Part shown: positions 9,168 to 60,794 of the stretch, one piece after another
How positions within the stretch are numbered: position 1 is the stretch's first letter
Layout: the number at the start of each line of letters is the position of its first letter
Assembly: GCF_033153115.1 (NCBI RefSeq)
Contig: NW_026889763.1
Span: 15,934,001 to 15,998,000, forward strand
Length of the DNA: 64,000 nt
Direction: 5' to 3'
Origin: Saccostrea echinata
Lineage: Eukaryota
Notes under the pieces: generated by a model
Told to the model about the DNA's origin: nothing
Seen by the model: only the letters and a program-made list of their open reading frames with translations
Database searches by the model: none
Translations under genes and position numbers: made by a program

Positions 9168-11902
9168 TATCCTCTGTCATTCAGTGTAACGGTATCTCAA
9201 AATGCTCCATGTAACCATACAGAGGTAGGAAGTAAAGATCAATCAAGTGTGAAGTTATGGTGTGCGAACAAAGCAGACGATTTTCGAGCTAGTATAGACC
9301 GGTATAAATCTACAACCACCAAAATTGAAGAAGAAATCGGGGATCTAATGAATTTAGAAAATGGTCTGGAAAAAGAGCATTTGAACAGTGTAATGTCAAA
9401 AATCTGCAATGTGTTTCTAAGCGCAGCCAAAGAATCATTTGGGATTAAACATGAAATAAAAAGCACAAAGAAAAAATCCGAAAAACCATGGTTTAATCGT
9501 TATTGTAGAACGGCGAGGAAAAAATTTCACTTAGCTAAACGTATGCATAATAGAATTAAAACCCAAGATTTTAGAGAAAATCTAAAAATAGCTAGCAAAG
9601 AATATAAAAATGTAATGGATTTATCAATAAACGACTATAGACAAGATCTCTCTCAGAAAATTAAAAGATTGCGAACAAACAACACAAAGGAATACTGGAA
9701 AATATTAAATAGCCAAAATAAAAATAACAAATGTACAGCTGATTTAAATAATCTGTATACTTTTTTCAAAAATATTAATGAAGCCGATTTAGACGAAACT
9801 GATTCTGAAATCAACATCACTGAACAAAGTAGATATAATGAAATACTTGATTGTCCAATTTCGCAAGATGAAATTTTGGCCGCCGTAAAAGACCTAAAAA
9901 ACAACAAATCTCCCGGAAGTGACCATATTCTTAATGAACATATTAGTACCACTATTTCACTGTTTCTGTCTTTATACGAGAAACTGTTTAATCTCATTTT
10001 TAACTCTGGGATAGTACCGGAAGAATGGCTTATAGGCATTGTAAAACCTATTTATAAAAATAAAGGAGATCCAACACAACCCGAGAACTATCGCCCGATC
10101 ACATTGTTGAGTTGCCTTGGGAAACTTTTCACTAGTATTTTGAAAAAACGATTAGAAATATATGCAGAAAATGTCAGTCTGATTAACGAAAGTCAAACAG
10201 GTTTCAGAAAAGGGTACTCTACATTAGATAATATATTGATTTTGCATTTTCTGTCACAAGCACTTATAAATAGCAAAAAAAAGTTATATTGTGCGTTCAT
10301 CGACTTTAAACAGGCTTTTGATACTGTTTGGAGAGGTGGTCTTTGGTATAAATTATTTTCAAATGGTGTTAGTGGGAAATGTTTTACTTACATTAGAAAT
10401 ATGTATGCAGGTATAAAATCAAGAATAAATGTGGATGGTGTGTCTTCTGAATATTTCACCTGCAATGTCGGAGTCAGACAAGGCGAAAATCTATCACCTT
10501 TTTTATTTTCTCTGTATATCAATGACTTAGAAAATTATCTTACAGAAAGGAATGTTAATGGCTTACAGAATTTGTCTAAAGAGATTGAAGATGATCTTAC
10601 CGTTTTTATCAAACTGTTTATATTATTTTATGCAGATGATACTGTTATTTTGTCTGAAACTGCAAATGATCTACAACATGCATTAAATGAATTTTCTGCA
10701 TATTGTAAAACATGGAAACTCCATGTTAATGTCAATAAAACAAAAATTGTCATTTTTTCAAAAGGACCATCACCCAAACATACATTTAAATACAACAACG
10801 ATGTTTTAGAAACTGTAAAAGATTTCAATTACTTAGGTATTTTATTCTCAAGATCAGGGTCATTTTCAAAGGCTAAGAAACACTTATGTAATCAAGCACA
10901 AAAGGCAATGTACGGAATTATAAGAAAAATTCGTTTATATAATCTACCTTTTGATTGTCAGCTAGATCTATTTGATAAAGTTGTTGTTCCTGTTTTGTTA
11001 TATGGGTGCGAAATATGGGGATTTGAAAATATTGATATTATTGAACGTTTACATTTAAGATTTTTGAAATATATTTTAAACCTAAAATCTAGTACACCGA
11101 GTTTTATGGTATACGGGGAGACTGGACGTTACCCGATGTACGTACGCATTTATACAAGAATGATATCTTTCTGGGGGAAACTGTTACATGGAAATGAGAA
11201 TAAGATTTGTAGAATTATTTATTTACACCTTTATAATAAATATACCAAAAATGGAATCAATAATCCATGGATATCTTGCATACAGAATATTCTTAACACT
11301 GCAGGACTATGTAATGTTTGGAATGATCAAAATTTTCATAGTGTTAAATGGATTGCGACTGCAATAAACCAAAAGCTTAAAGACCAATTTTTACAAAAAT
11401 GGTATAGTGATATGAATAATTCCAGTAAAGGTATTACATATAGAATTTTTAAAACAAAGTTTGAATGTGAAAAATACTTAACTATTTTACCAAGAAAATT
11501 TAGAAATATCTTTTCAAAATTCAGAACAAGTAACCATCGTCTTCCCATAGAGGTGGGTAGATGGAATAATGTTGAAAGAAATGAAAGAGTGTGCTATTTA
11601 TGTAATAATAATCAAATTGGAGACGAATTTCATTACTTACTGGAATGTAATGTATTTTGTAATATTCGAAAAGATTTTCTGTTAAAGAAATACTATGTAC
11701 ATCCAAATATTATAAAATTCTGTAATTTAATGACAAATACTGACCCAGCATTCTTAAGAAAATTGTGTATATTTATCATCAAAATTTTTGACACTGTCTG
11801 TCCTCCTGTAATCTCTGCTCGTCCATAATTATTGTAAATATGTATATATGTACCTCTTGTACCATTCATATGGTTTTTGAGAGAATAAATGAATGAATGA
11901 AT
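9168..11902 (+). mobile_element. 5'-truncated non-LTR retrotransposon (RTE-X-like) in NDUFV3 intron 1
   Basis: The frame is open from about 9168 (PLSFSV, the likely last remnant of the endonuclease). The 3' UTR has AATAAA and a (TGAA)n tail at 11884-11902. Clade assignment is from recalled motifs, not a search. Confidence 0.9.
9249..11828 (+). CDS. LINE ORF2 reverse transcriptase with C-terminal zinc knuckle (endonuclease missing)
   Basis: Uninterrupted 859-aa ORF with KSPG, ENYRPITLLSCLGK, QTGFR, FIDFKQAFD, GVRQGENLSP, YADD, YLG and C-x2-C...H-x4-C. Confidence 0.95.
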   Translation: MKLWCANKADDFRASIDRYKSTTTKIEEEIGDLMNLENGLEKEHLNSVMSKICNVFLSAAKESFGIKHEIKSTKKKSEKPWFNRYCRTARKKFHLAKRMHNRIKTQDFRENLKIASKEYKNVMDLSINDYRQDLSQKIKRLRTNNTKEYWKILNSQNKNNKCTADLNNLYTFFKNINEADLDETDSEINITEQSRYNEILDCPISQDEILAAVKDLKNNKSPGSDHILNEHISTTISLFLSLYEKLFNLIFNSGIVPEEWLIGIVKPIYKNKGDPTQPENYRPITLLSCLGKLFTSILKKRLEIYAENVSLINESQTGFRKGYSTLDNILILHFLSQALINSKKKLYCAFIDFKQAFDTVWRGGLWYKLFSNGVSGKCFTYIRNMYAGIKSRINVDGVSSEYFTCNVGVRQGENLSPFLFSLYINDLENYLTERNVNGLQNLSKEIEDDLTVFIKLFILFYADDTVILSETANDLQHALNEFSAYCKTWKLHVNVNKTKIVIFSKGPSPKHTFKYNNDVLETVKDFNYLGILFSRSGSFSKAKKHLCNQAQKAMYGIIRKIRLYNLPFDCQLDLFDKVVVPVLLYGCEIWGFENIDIIERLHLRFLKYILNLKSSTPSFMVYGETGRYPMYVRIYTRMISFWGKLLHGNENKICRIIYLHLYNKYTKNGINNPWISCIQNILNTAGLCNVWNDQNFHSVKWIATAINQKLKDQFLQKWYSDMNNSSKGITYRIFKTKFECEKYLTILPRKFRNIFSKFRTSNHRLPIEVGRWNNVERNERVCYLCNNNQIGDEFHYLLECNVFCNIRKDFLLKKYYVHPNIIKFCNLMTNTDPAFLRKLCIFIIKIFDTVCPPVISARP

Positions 11903-53828: not shown

Positions 53829-53886
53829 TGTAACAGGAAAGGAGAAAATGTATGGCTGGACCGGGAATCGAACCCAAACCATTACA
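53829..53886 (-). mobile_element. 58-bp internally deleted solo LTR of the tRNA-containing TRIM
   Basis: The - strand reads TGTAATGGTTTGGGTTCGATTCCCGGTCCAGCCATACATTTTCTCCTTTCCTGTTACA, flanked by a 4-bp TSD ATAT. Confidence 0.85.
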
Positions 53887-56089: not shown

Positions 56090-57521
56090 TAATGAATTTA
56101 ACGGATTTTTTTCTATAGTGTATTGCTGCTGCTTTATAGAACAAAAGATTTTTTTAAATCAAGTAATATATTTCTCTAAGTGTATAATTTAATTAATTCA
56201 TTTGATCATCCTTTTAATCACTTTTTTCATTCCTTGCTTAATTTCAACTAAGGAAATGTATAAAGTTTATAATGGTTCTAAGTTAATAAAATAATTTTCG
56301 ATGATTCTGTAGGCATTTATTTTTATGTAGGCGTTCCCTTTAGATGTGACGTTACGTTATATCGCTGTGACGTCACAAGTTACATTTTATTGAAAAATGT
56401 AATTACCTTTTTTATATTGAAAAATGCAATAACCTTTAGTATATATAGAAATTGCCCAACAATATTTGAATTAAACTAACAAGTTTCAATTTTTTTATTT
56501 TATTTTATTTTTTTTTAAATTTACAAAAGTCGGTGTCTTTCAGCATTGAATTATTATTTTTTGAAAGATGTAAGTCTCATAACTGCAACAGTATGTGCAA
56601 ACAAATTGAATAACGTACGTTTTAATTCAATGCTTATATATACATTTTTTAACCCCCTGCCTTGTCTGTAAATGTCATTAATATTTCAAAATCCCTGCAG
56701 TATCCTTCGGGTAAGTTACAATTAATGGAGAAACCATTACAACAGCTACTATCGTCAACCTGTTCAATCTGAGAATGAATTTTGATTTTTGAGTATGACT
56801 TTGTACGGCATTTACCGTTTGTGACGTCAAAATCATACTTTATATTGGTGTGTAAATCACACAGATTTGTCACGTAGGCATATTTCATGAAGTGCATTAA
56901 TGTTAAAAAGTTCACTGGGAAATGAGTTTGGTTGGTCACGGGATCAAATCCTGTGAAGCTGCGAATTGAAACGAAACACTCGCATATCAAAAATATTTCT
57001 GCTGTAAGTATTTGAAGACGATGACGTGAATGATTTTGGCAAGGATGCTTCGCCAGAAGCCATTTGTCATTTATTGACAAAAAAGAAAAAAAAGAAGAAG
57101 CCGACAGCGTATTGACGACTATTTTAATATAATAGTACCAGCATATTCCCCAGATGAGTTCTCACATTTTCGAATGCGTAGAGAGACTTTCGAGGCGATC
57201 ACAAATGAATACTAGCTGCAGAGCTACAGTTCTGCAGCTAAAATAAATGCTAGAATAGACAATTGAATAAATGCAGTACTCGGGCTTTTTACAACAGATC
57301 TTAAATTCCTTTTATATAGAAGATTTTGTGAATGTTCCCTTTAAAAAAATATAACAAACAAATAATTTACAAAGTTATCAAATTCTGATCTTAGATTTTT
57401 TGTGGAAAAGGCTGCAGCAGATCGCTAGACTTTGCATTGAAACATTTTATACAGGTGATTTTCTTATGTTAGTAATAATTTAAAATACATGTATACCTGT
57501 CTACAGACTTCCTCAACTTGC

Positions 57522-58553
57522 AGGAGAAAGTCCTGTCAGGGGCTAAAAAAACTTGGGTCGTGTCTTCGAAGGCGAAGACAATTTCAGGAGGGAGGAATGT
57601 AATGGTTTGGGTCATGGATATCGGCCTGGGTACATGTAGCTCAGTCGGTAGAGCACCTGACTAGTGATGTAGGGGACCCTGGCTCGATTACCGGTTCAGC
57701 CGTACACTTTCTCCTTTCCTCTTACAGATTTGGTGCCCTGACCAGGATGTGACAGTAGGTGAAAGACCTGCTGAGGGAAGAGCCTGGGTTGGTGTCGACG
57801 GGGGTCAAAGGCCTTTAAGGAGGGAGGAATGTGGCAGTCAGACAGGTTCGATCGCCGGTGGCCAGATAGTTCAGTTGGTAGAGCACTTGATTGGAGATTC
57901 AGGGGGTCCGGGTTCGAATCCCGGTCTGGCCCGTCTCATTTTTCTCCTTTCCTGTTACATTTGGTGCCGTGTCATGCCCTGGAATTGACAGGTGAAAGAC
58001 CTGCCAGGGAAGAGCCTGGGTTGTTGTCTTCGGGCGGGGGGGGGGGGGGGGGTCGAAGACCTTTTTCGGGGACCGAAGACATTTAGGGAAGGGGGAATGT
58101 GGCGGTCAGACGAGTTGTATCGCCAGTGGCCAGATTGCTCAGATGGTAAAGCACCTGACTGGAGATTCAGGGGCCGGGTCTGGTCCGTTGCATTTTTCTC
58201 CTCTCCTAATACAGGTGAAAGAACTATAAGAGAAGAGTCTGTCTAAGGGACGAGGATATCTAAAGAGGGAAGAATGTGGTGAATGTGGTGGTCAGCGCTA
58301 GTGGACTTAGGGGGGGCTTTTTTATTTAACCCAAATCAATTTTTGTGTCTTGTTTTTTTTTCCCTTTTTGTTAGATGTTTGGAGCTTCCAGAGGTTTCGC
58401 CAACTGGCCCTGGGCTTTGTCTTGGTACCACTAGTACTGGGTTCCTTTAAGGCGGTCTCCAGACCCCCAGCCTGTTGCCTTCTCTCTTTTTAAAGAAATA
58501 CTGAACCCACCACTGGTCAGGCAGGTTCGTTCGATGGCCAGATAGAGCACCTG
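57522..58553 (+). mobile_element. Tandem array of tRNA-containing TRIM LTR retroelements (Helenus-like)
   Basis: LTRs at 57598-57726, 57830-57959, 58098-58213 and ~58284-58553 (interrupted). Each is preceded by a PPT (AGGAGGGAGGAA-like); LTR1 and LTR2 are followed by a PBS TGGTGCC(G/C)TG. Pol III A/B boxes lie inside the LTRs. Confidence 0.88.
58293..58515. mobile_element. Non-autonomous DNA transposon (CAG...CTG) inserted in LTR4
   Basis: Splits TGTGGTGGT|...|GTCAGGCAGG with an apparent 2-bp TSD GT. Ends resemble those of 60196-60447. Confidence 0.6.
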
Positions 58554-58581
58554 TTTAGAATTTTGAAAGCATATTTGACTT

Positions 58582-58805
58582 CAGGCCCCAAGACCATAAA
58601 CTGAGAACAGACTTAAGTCAAAATTTCAAACCAATATAACTTTTGAAAATAATTTCGATAATGAAATAAAATTTTCATCTTATGTTTTAATTGGAACATT
58701 ATACAAACCTGCAAATTTTTAAGTATGTGTGTTAAATAAAACACAAGATATTCAAAATCAAAATTTTTACTTAAGTTTGTTCTCAGTTTATGGTCTCGAG
58801 GCCTG
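58582..58805. mobile_element. MITE with ~37-bp TIR (Harbinger-like GGCC termini)
   Basis: CAGGCCCCAAGACCATAAACTGAGAACAGACTTAAGT / ACTTAAGTTTGTTCTCAGTTTATGGTCTCGAGGCCTG. Confidence 0.8.
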
Positions 58806-59833
58806 GTCTGGTCCCTCGAAGTTCCTGTCACTCTTCTAAGGGAGTTTTAATATTGTAACAGGAAATAAAACTATAAAAAATAAAAATCATAAAAGGGCCA
58901 ACCTCATTCTGGACTCCAGTCTTAAAGCCTTATAAACCTCAAACACTGAAGTTTGAGGATAACGGACTCCTGAATGACATTGGGCCGATTATGCATTTTG
59001 TTTGTATATAGCACGGGATCTTTGGCTATGCAAGTGAGAGGACACGTCAAACATAACAACTCTTTAAATCCTTGAGCTTGGTCGGTGTGACCCAAGTCGA
59101 ATTTCTATTTACACGAAATGACTCTAGGATATTACATATTCCAAATGCCTTCAAGATCTGAGGACCATTCCTCACCAGAGCGGCTCACAGGTGTTGGGGA
59201 GTGGAGATGTTACCCAACCTGTATAACATGCAAGCAAGACAGTTACATTTCAGCTTTCCACTCTTTATTAAATTAAACACTCCATTTTTAAATATTTATA
59301 ATTGCAATAAATAATTTTACACACTATACTTAACATTCTAATAGATATTCCTACTTATAATATGAAATATTTTAACCTGTAAATAAAAAGAGCCACCTGA
59401 AAATATTATAATTTTACAAAAAAAAAAAAAAAAAAAAAAAAAAAACCGCGCAAGTCTACAAAACGATCTCACCTGTATAACATGCAACTAAGAAAGTCAC
59501 AATTCAGCTTTCCACTGAAATCGCGTCTGTCCTGGCCGCCTGTTTTATGCCTGAAGTCGTACATCCCCATATTTGTTATTCCTCCAAAATTTACAATAAC
59601 TACTTTTAATTTGAATTTTAATTACTATTATTCTCTCCTCCAACACTTTTTAATTTCCTAATGCACTTAAAAAAAATCATTTCCAATCTTTTGCATAATC
59701 TTTAAATTTTTTATTTGTTTCAGCTAATTTATACCAACAACTGCCCTCTGGTCACTTCAATACTACTGGTTGCTCCTTCATTCTAACCAAATATATCTTT
59801 TGATAAACAAGTAATTAAACAACCGCATTCCAA

Positions 59834-60087: not shown

Positions 60088-60143
60088 AGCTCTACCAACT
60101 GAGCTATCTTGTCACCGCCGATCGAACACGCCTGACCGCCATA
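60088..60143 (-). mobile_element. 5' fragment of a tRNA-containing LTR
   Basis: The - strand reads TATGGCGGTCAGGCGTGTTCGATCGGCGGTGACAAGATAGCTCAGTTGGTAGAGCT, matching the 5' half of LTR2/LTR3. Confidence 0.75.
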
Positions 60144-60195
60144 GTCATAATAGAAACTGCTGATGACTATAATTTGACCTCCAAAGGCACCCTCT

Positions 60196-60644: not shown

Positions 60645-60794
60645 ATGGGTCTGCTATCTGAAGGTTCACCCCTTGACTGGACAGAGACGAAGGCGTATGC
60701 TGATCACGTGCGGAAACATGGCATCAGACAGTTTATAAATTTGTATCATAAACTCCAGGATAGGACCAAAGACGTTTTATACTGGGGAGATGAG
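60645..60794 (+). CDS. GCLC: Glutamate-cysteine ligase catalytic subunit, exon 1
   Basis: [50 protein letters not shown]|GTGAGT matches the conserved GCLC N-terminus, with the intron after WGDE. The rest lies beyond the window. Confidence 0.95.

What the first reader, a model, noticed from the sequence alone, without database searches (positions are those of the whole stretch)
57598..57959. Two different LTR types are mixed within one array
LTR1 begins TGTAATGGTTTGGGTCATGGATATCGGCCTGGGTACATGTAGCTCAG, whereas LTR2-4 begin TGTGGCRGTCAGACAGGTTCGATCGCCGGTGGCCAGATAG. Their 3' ends (TTTCTCCTTTCCTGTTACA) are shared. Each type also exists separately in this window with its own TSD: type 1 at 53829, type 2 at 48812. 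Normal reverse transcription makes the two LTRs identical. A mixed array therefore implies template switching between co-packaged subfamilies, recombination, or a stable heteromeric element (inference).
Basis: partly seen in the sequence, partly recalled or inferred. Interest (0 to 1): 0.7.

Follow-up and report, generated by a model that had tools for sequence, protein, structure and literature searches.

The report
Hybrid array of two Helenus families
This is a short tandem array of a known tiny oyster-type retrotransposon in which two related families are joined, and a copy of the host primer tRNA left at the joint suggests they were likely spliced together during reverse transcription rather than forming a fixed composite element.

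Summary
Observation confirmed. The two LTR types (73% identical) are the known Helenus TRIM families A (Helenus-2_SaGl-like) and B (Helenus-1_SaGl-like), each normally with its own internal segment. The window array reads I(A)-A | I(B)-B-I(B)-B-I-B, an old, eroded copy without a recoverable TSD. The single switch lies in the primer-binding site. There the joint carries a 17/18 match to the 3' end of this genome's tRNA-His, where ordinary family PBSs have only a 9-10 nt run. The junction is not unique: 27 mixed loci were found, about 6% of arrays in a sample not chosen for mixing (8 of 144). Six of nine complete elements with different outer LTRs keep a perfect 4-bp TSD (null 1.3%). Orders vary (AB, BA, ABB, BABA, BBBA, ABAA), so there is no fixed composite unit. 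Best reading: cross-family plus-strand transfer between co-packaged RNAs that share one tRNA-His primer. Other mixed loci switch inside the tRNA-like LTR part. An intact Gypsy with the same PBS and a near-identical PPT is a candidate helper. Chimeric tandem TRIMs are reported in plants; earlier scan notes show Helenus elsewhere but not mixed arrays.

The parts
57485..57510 (+). Possible remnant of the 3' end and spacer of an upstream type-A LTR (inconclusive)
   Evidence: Local score 10 against the A 3' end and 5 against B; 1.6% of 4968 random window 32-mers score as well
57511..57597 (+). Type-A internal segment (I0), PBS deleted, ending in the PPT
   Evidence: Alignment to I0 of a pure A array, L114
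57598..57726 (+). LTR1, type A (Helenus-2_SaGl-like), TG...CA, with a tRNA-like A-box/B-box part
   Evidence: 110/123 identical to the A copy, 92/126 to the B copy; A-type at the diagnostic columns
57727..57748 (+). A-type spacer followed by an 18-nt PBS that copies the tRNA-His 3' end: the family switch point
   Evidence: 17/18 match to the complement of tRNA-His(GTG) plus CCA; A-type spacer then B-type body
57749..57829 (+). Type-B internal body ending in the PPT (57814-57829)
   Evidence: Whole segment 57727-57829 is 88/97 identical to the internal of pure B element L061
57830..57959 (+). LTR2, type B (Helenus-1_SaGl-like); tRNA-like part 57860-57932
   Evidence: 118/130 identical to the B copy; ARAGORN undetermined tRNA; Rfam RF00005 58.3 bits
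57960..58097 (+). Type-B internal (I2) with the ordinary 10-nt-run PBS, an expanded G run and a duplicated 3' part
   Evidence: 91/102 identical to I2 of L030; PBS 12/18
58098..58213 (+). LTR3, type B, 14-nt deletion
   Evidence: 101/116 identical to the B copy and 84% to LTR2
58214..58274 (+). Degraded type-B internal, PBS lost
   Evidence: 46/61 identical to I2
58284..58831 (+). LTR4, type B, in pieces (58284-58295, 58521-58553, weak 58802-58831) split by two insertions
   Evidence: 5' pieces 36/43 identical to B, 3' piece only 24/36; GGTCAG duplicated around the first insertion; inverted repeat 58582-58626/58761-58805
48812..48928 (+). Solo type-B LTR, TSD CATG
53829..53886 (-). Internally deleted solo type-A LTR, TSD ATAT
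60089..60146 (-). 5' fragment of a type-B LTR
   Evidence: 83% complementary to 57827-57884

Best explanation
The array joins two co-resident Helenus TRIM families at the primer-binding site, and the joint was most likely made at the plus-strand transfer of reverse transcription, when a type-A plus-strand strong-stop DNA carrying an 18-nt copy of the shared tRNA-His primer landed on the minus strand of a co-packaged type-B RNA. Shown: family identity, the switch position, the tRNA copy, recurrence at other loci, TSDs around other mixed elements, and integrated dead-end products that contain mature-tRNA copies. Inferred: co-packaging in a Gypsy particle, the transfer step itself, integration of this copy as one unit, and array growth by priming at internal PBS/PPT sites. 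Because both families use the same tRNA, their plus-strand strong-stop ends would be identical while their own PBSs pair only 9-10 nt, so this transfer would discriminate poorly between families. A second class of mixed loci switches inside the tRNA-like LTR part and would come from minus-strand transfer or copy-choice.
For: (1) Across 256 de-duplicated clusters, the family switches at 28 of 239 typed LTR-to-internal junctions but at 1 of 257 typed internal-to-LTR (PPT) junctions, although the shared PPT block (15 nt) is longer than the shared PBS block (11 nt). The sample is enriched for PBS switches by targeted searches; the one targeted PPT-switch search gave 4 hits, of which at most one (L064) may be a switch. 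(2) In 22 of those 28 the spacer follows the upstream LTR, placing the crossover in the 11-nt PBS block (read by eye). (3) The window PBS matches tRNA-His at 17/18; ordinary A and B PBSs match 10/18 and 12/18. (4) A pattern symmetric for both heads after a long (A-type) spacer gave 19 hits, of which 5 were an A LTR followed by a B internal: 4 with the tRNA copy and 1 with the ordinary head, against 9 of 55 (16%) at B-B junctions in the unselected sample; binomial p = 0.003. (5) Six of 9 complete elements with unlike outer LTRs have a perfect 4-bp TSD and 2 more match 3/4; pure A 40 of 63, pure B 38 of 56; null 221 of 17292. (6) Seven hand-picked inserts of an LTR plus tRNA-His copy that then jumps to an LTR end, an LTR interior, the internal segment or an inverted LTR all carry 4-bp TSDs; the tRNA copy runs about 23-56 nt in five listed cases, begins with the complement of CCA that the four genes examined lack, and L004 holds a nearly whole tRNA-His with a G at -1 where those genes have A. 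(7) tRNA-to-internal joints have more than one breakpoint (L061 against L163 and L123), so they arose repeatedly.
Against: The window array has no readable TSD and is old (LTR2 against LTR3 84%), so its insertion as a unit is not shown. In the unselected sample only 2 of the 8 other mixed arrays switch cleanly at the PBS (L003, L322); 6 switch inside the LTR (L013, L179, L194, L217, L227, L313), which homology-driven DNA recombination could also give. L217 needs two crossovers and looks like a conversion patch. The tRNA-perfect internal also occurs in pure B arrays (16 junctions), so it may be inherited rather than made at this joint. Six of 28 switches lie in the last ~25 nt of the LTR, not the PBS. 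The second strand transfer is described as generally intramolecular in HIV-1 single-cycle studies (PMC5651808, abstract).
Confidence: 0.68

Rival explanations
1. The joint was inherited from a heteromeric master array that copies itself as a unit; for example B-I0-A acts as a composite LTR around the tRNA-perfect internal, giving B-A-B-A and, by LTR-LTR recombination, B-A solos.
For: B-I0-A-I1-B-I0-A occurs twice with perfect TSDs (L002, L003) and B-I0-A three times with 4/4 or 3/4 TSDs (L074, L258, L049). The two B-I0-A halves of L002 share 6 private alignment columns, as expected if they were copied from one template.
Against: At least eight different orders occur among 27 mixed loci. The L003 halves share only 1 private column, and the L002 variants are absent from L003. 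Mixed-array LTRs from different loci are no closer to each other (p-distance 0.169 A, 0.163 B) than to pure arrays (0.145) (low resolution on 125-bp LTRs). A-to-B joints carry different A spacers. The window order A-B-B-B is not B-A-B-A. The master's first joint would still need an origin.
Confidence: 0.14
2. Post-insertion ectopic recombination or gene conversion between dispersed A and B copies replaced part of an array, using the shared PBS, tRNA-like and LTR-end homologies.
For: The families share 14 identity blocks of 6-15 nt. Within-LTR crossovers are spread over the tRNA-like part. L217 has a B patch in an otherwise A element with a TSD. Non-crossover conversion would keep TSDs. Inter-element recombination is the favoured model for plant multi-LTR Cassandra (PMC4079214, passages).
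Against: It does not predict 28 switches at the LTR/PBS side against 1 at the longer PPT block, nor the excess of tRNA-perfect PBS at A-to-B joints. It cannot make mature-tRNA inserts. Crossover-type recombination loses the TSD (PMC1950507, part 1 of 2 read). Within-family donors at about 88% identity would be expected to outcompete donors at 73-82% (inference).
Confidence: 0.14
3. Nested insertion of a B array behind an A LTR, or a misassembly.
For: No independent read set spans this locus: the one run listed held 0.06 of the words and no piece bridged the array.
Against: LTR2 is preceded by its own internal segment and PPT, with no duplication at the joint. The units differ by 16-27% over about 700 bp in a 21-Mb contig. 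The same kinds of joint occur at 26 other loci.
Confidence: 0.03

Closest known systems
Helenus TRIMs (TRIMp3), bivalve families Helenus-1_SaGl and Helenus-2_SaGl (Kojima 2024, PMC10886601; parts 1-4 of 6 of the text, word-search passages, supplement part 1 and searched passages)
   Same: Type B and its internal read like Helenus-1_SaGl, type A and its internal like Helenus-2_SaGl (compared by eye with the supplement); tRNA-like LTR, PBS, PPT, about 355-360 bp, 4-bp TSD.
   Different: The paper gives two-LTR families, mentions tandem arrays only for zebrafish LTR-11_DR, and its main text has no hit for 'chimer', 'mixed' or 'different LTR'. Here arrays mix two families and unlike outer LTRs carry TSDs.
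Tandemly arrayed and chimeric TRIMs of plants (PMC4717578, PMC4079214, PMC7215508, PMC13570524; passages only)
   Same: LnIn-1 arrays with TSDs, most with three LTRs; sugar beet has two chimeric TRIM-08 elements with extra LTRs from TRIM-01 or TRIM-05.
   Different: In the passages seen these are ascribed to unequal recombination or unspecified template switching, with no mapping to the PBS and no tRNA footprint.
Template-switch complexes of Triticeae (Sabot and Schulman 2007, PMC1950507; part 1 of 2 read)
   Same: Multi-LTR insertions with a TSD made during reverse transcription.
   Different: Their two outer LTRs are highly similar and the model is an inter-RNA first transfer; here outer LTRs can be of different families and many joints are at the PBS.
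biv-TRIM (Satovic 2019, PMC6934838; parts 1-2 of 5 read)
   Same: Bivalve TRIM forming tandem arrays; in five C. edule elements left and right repeats fell in different clusters.
   Different: 202-218 bp repeats, no clear PBS, PPT GGGGAGA; not this element.
Intermolecular second-strand transfer in HIV-1 (PMC5651808, abstract only; review PMC6894440, passages)
   Same: Proposed transfer of plus-strand strong-stop DNA between molecules through the PBS.
   Different: A retrovirus inferred from recombinant sequences; here non-coding elements, fossil insertions and two families.

Membership tests
Helenus TRIM | Short non-coding element, LTR-internal-LTR under 1 kb | tested here: met
   LTRs 116-130 bp, internals about 100 bp; pure two-LTR copies about 355-362 bp
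Helenus TRIM | tRNA-derived sequence with A and B boxes inside the LTR | tested here: met
   57860-57932: ARAGORN undetermined tRNA, RF00005 E 1.2e-11; LTR1 and LTR3 were not called by either tool
Helenus TRIM | PBS complementary to a host tRNA 3' end, and a PPT | tested here: met
   tRNA-His(GTG) genes L290-L293; 17/18 at 57731-57748 and 10-12/18 in ordinary internals; PPT before each LTR
Helenus TRIM | 4-bp TSD (animal Helenus) | tested here: met
   40 of 63 pure A and 38 of 56 pure B complete elements against a 1.3% null; both window solos; not readable for the window array
Helenus TRIM | RNA polymerase III transcription from the LTR | not testable with these tools
   No raw RNA reads were listed; also unvalidated in PMC10886601
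Helenus TRIM | Mobilised in trans by a Gypsy element | tested here: inconclusive
   Intact Gypsy L334 with 18/18 tRNA-His PBS and a PPT one base from the TRIM PPT; dependence not shown
Canonical LTR element | Outer LTRs identical at insertion | tested here: not met
   Nine complete elements have A at one end and B at the other, 6 with a perfect TSD; the window LTR1 and LTR2 are 73% identical
Fixed composite (heteromeric) transposing unit | One recurring LTR order with shared descent | tested here: not met
   Many orders among 27 mixed loci; no clustering of mixed-array LTRs; B-A-B-A twice, apparently independent
Tandemly arrayed TRIM | Three or more LTRs alternating with PBS/PPT-bearing internals | tested here: met
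   Four LTRs and four internals in the window, two internals with the PBS lost

The most novel reading that the evidence does not exclude
Oyster Helenus families that share a weakly paired tRNA-His primer routinely swap strands at the plus-strand transfer, the step thought to guarantee identical LTRs; integrase accepts the unlike ends, internal PBS/PPT priming turns LTR-internal-LTR blocks into composite LTRs, and such swaps seed new LTR/internal pairings, leaving a genome-wide fossil record of intermolecular second-strand transfer.
Probability: 0.4. Interest if true: 0.62.

Novelty: new variant of a known kind. Interest (0 to 1): 0.42.

Why it matters
The element family is described and multi-LTR TRIMs are common, so the array alone is ordinary. 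What adds value is the mechanism trace. If the reading holds, unlike LTRs flanked by a TSD can be born that way, which breaks LTR-divergence dating and LTR-pair annotation for these elements. It would show that two non-autonomous families share particles and a helper, and it names a testable Gypsy partner (L334). It also offers a route for LTR/internal reshuffling: in the published consensus set, Helenus-2_CGi and Helenus-2C_CGi have near-identical internals but A-like and B-like LTRs (by eye).

Tried and rejected
Independent reads: one run was listed (share 0.06, RNA guessed, contigs only), with no RNA holder on record. Laying it gave only short repeat pieces and no bridge, so it is no evidence on assembly or expression. 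Upstream A-LTR remnant: inconclusive (1.6% null). TSD for the window array: not found; both ends are damaged. PPT-side switches: a targeted search gave 4 hits, of which three were B LTRs with start mutations or fragments and one (L064) is unresolved; the 100 listed of 267 PPT junctions showed no clear switch by eye. The PBS-head labels were wrong because of a script bug and were replaced from then on. The Fisher tests mix a targeted with an unselected sample and are not relied on. A single composite lineage was rejected. The Gypsy L334 shows no matching 4-bp TSD. PMC7750724 and PMC1170264 are not held, so any prior description there was not seen. Literature searches listed no paper on mixed Helenus arrays; only open-access full text is covered. 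The genome could not be scanned whole: only the first 100 of 232 PBS and 100 of 267 PPT pattern matches were listed.

Full report
Observation. The quoted sequences are present. LTR1 (57598-57726) and LTR2 (57830-57959) are 73% identical; against real pure copies from the same genome LTR1 is type A (89%) and LTR2 and LTR3 are type B (91%, 87%). Both solos have 4-bp TSDs: 48812-48928 (+, CATG) and 53829-53886 (-, ATAT, internally deleted). The array is larger than described. An A-type internal segment precedes LTR1, and LTR4 is split by two insertions. It reads I(A)-A | I(B)-B-I(B)-B-I-B with one family switch and no readable TSD.

Identity. The LTRs hold a tRNA-like unit and flank short internals with a PBS and PPT. 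By eye they match the published oyster families Helenus-2_SaGl (type A) and Helenus-1_SaGl (type B), each with its own internal segment (supplement of PMC10886601). The host is therefore inferred to be an oyster. These are members of a known kind.

Recurrence. Twelve searches of the own genome and six fetch calls gave 336 loci, reduced to 256 distinct clusters, 203 with two or more LTRs; 27 are mixed. That set is enriched by targeted searches. For a fair rate I used arrays picked by two family-neutral junction patterns (first 100 of 232 and first 100 of 267 matches): 145 arrays, 70 pure B, 65 pure A, 1 untyped and 9 mixed including the window, so 8 of 144 (5.6%) without it. Orders include AB, BA, ABB, BABA, BBBA and ABAA. 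Of 9 complete elements with A at one end and B at the other, 6 have a perfect 4-bp TSD and 2 match 3 of 4; pure A 40 of 63, pure B 38 of 56; shuffled flanks 221 of 17292. Unlike-ended elements thus keep TSDs as often as pure ones. Nested insertion and misassembly are very unlikely, though no read set spans the locus.

Where the switch lies. The internal body goes with the downstream LTR at 256 of 257 typed junctions, while the family changes at 28 of 239 typed LTR-to-internal junctions. The spacer between LTR and PBS differs between families, and in 22 of the 28 it follows the upstream LTR (by eye). That puts the crossover in the 11-nt shared PBS block, shorter than the 15-nt shared PPT block. 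The other 6 lie in the last ~25 nt of the LTR. A second class switches inside the tRNA-like part of an LTR: nine LTRs were aligned, seven A-to-B spread over the tRNA-like part and two B-to-A at its first bases. In the unselected sample this class is the commoner one (6 of 8 loci), which counts against a PBS-only story.

The tRNA footprint. Four tRNA-His(GTG) genes were examined. Ordinary A and B PBSs match the tRNA end in runs of 9 and 10 nt (10/18 and 12/18); the window joint matches 17/18. Eighteen bases is the length that plus-strand synthesis copies before the modified A58 (recalled, not from a call). This tRNA-perfect internal also occurs in pure B arrays (9 of 55 typed B-B junctions in the unselected sample). 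A pattern symmetric for both heads gave 19 hits, 5 of them an A LTR joined to a B internal, 4 with the tRNA copy (binomial p = 0.003). Either the copy was made at the joint or a perfect PBS is the better acceptor; both point to the PBS-mediated transfer.

Dead-end products. Seven hand-picked inserts consist of an LTR, spacer and tRNA-His copy that then jumps to an LTR end, an LTR interior, the internal segment or an inverted LTR, and all seven carry 4-bp TSDs. In L004 a nearly whole tRNA-His copy with G at -1, where the genes have A, links two B arrays. These show that mature tRNA was copied past the usual stop and that odd cDNAs were integrated. DNA recombination among genomic copies cannot make them.

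Mechanism. Shown: the anatomy, switch sites, footprints, TSDs and recurrence. Inferred: A and B RNAs are packaged together; both prime on tRNA-His, so their plus-strand strong-stop ends are the same while their PBSs pair weakly; an A strong-stop strand transfers to a B minus strand and gives A-I(B)-B. RNAs with several PBS and PPT sites would extend arrays. Priming at an internal PPT or PBS would duplicate a B-I0-A block and give B-A-B-A (L002, L003), whose recombination would leave B-A solos (L049, L074, L258). The L002 halves share 6 private columns and the L003 halves 1. I put this at 0.68 for the window joint, against 0.14 for descent from a heteromeric master, 0.14 for DNA-level conversion and 0.03 for nesting or misassembly. 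Mixed-array LTRs do not cluster, so a dedicated composite family is not supported, with the caveat that 125-bp LTRs resolve little.

Candidate helper. The PBS search also hit two long elements. L334 has 936-bp LTRs with one mismatch, a 496-aa frame with a zinc knuckle and a 1321-aa frame with protease, RT, RNase H and integrase in Gypsy order, an 18/18 tRNA-His PBS, and a PPT one base from the TRIM PPT. Dependence is untested.

Comparison. Helenus is described as two-LTR families; its paper has no text hit for chimeric or mixed arrays. Plant TRIM arrays are common (PMC4717578, PMC4079214, PMC7215508; passages), and two cross-family chimeric TRIMs are reported in sugar beet (PMC13570524; passages). 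Triticeae template-switch complexes have similar outer LTRs (PMC1950507). Intermolecular second-strand transfer has been inferred for HIV-1 (PMC5651808; abstract). Six literature searches listed no paper on mixed Helenus arrays; two possibly relevant papers were not held. Two earlier scan notes concern Helenus-like elements in other genomes and not mixed arrays.

Verdict. A real, recurrent but minority variant of a known element, with an unusually clear reverse-transcription footprint; not a fixed composite transposon. New variant of a known kind; interest 0.42.

Noticed in passing
L334 (G000:C16:15535800-15545700, minus strand): Young intact Gypsy element (936-bp LTRs, 1 mismatch; gag-like and pol frames open) with an 18/18 tRNA-His PBS and a near-identical PPT: candidate helper of both Helenus families.
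   Followed up: partly
L335 (G000:C80:97500-107400, minus strand): Related long element with the same PBS and LTR end; its coding region is broken into several frames.
   Followed up: no
L004:1415-1486: A nearly whole tRNA-His copy with G at -1 joins two type-B arrays tail to tail.
   Followed up: partly
L008, L013, L015, L142, L171, L199, L323, L332: Elements with an inverted LTR at one end, seven of these eight with a perfect 4-bp TSD (L013 3/4), so inverted products are also integrated.
   Followed up: no
L284, L313: B-to-A chimeric LTRs switch at the first bases of the tRNA-like unit, a hint of the transcription start.
   Followed up: partly
L295:802-1460: A type-A LTR followed by five tandem internal-segment hits, a satellite-like expansion.
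   Followed up: no
window 60645-60794 (+): First exon of a glutamate-cysteine ligase gene (PDB 3ig5, E 1.7e-09), about 1.8 kb downstream of the last LTR4 piece.
   Followed up: partly
window 58296-58520 and 58582-58805: Two small insertions with inverted ends, probably non-autonomous DNA transposons, split LTR4.
   Followed up: no
window 10017-11180 and 43992-45164: Two inverted copies of a repeat of about 1.1 kb, 71-73% complementary.
   Followed up: no
PMC10886601 supplement, Helenus-2_CGi and Helenus-2C_CGi: Near-identical internal segments paired with A-like and B-like LTRs, suggesting a past LTR swap fixed as a family (by eye).
   Followed up: no
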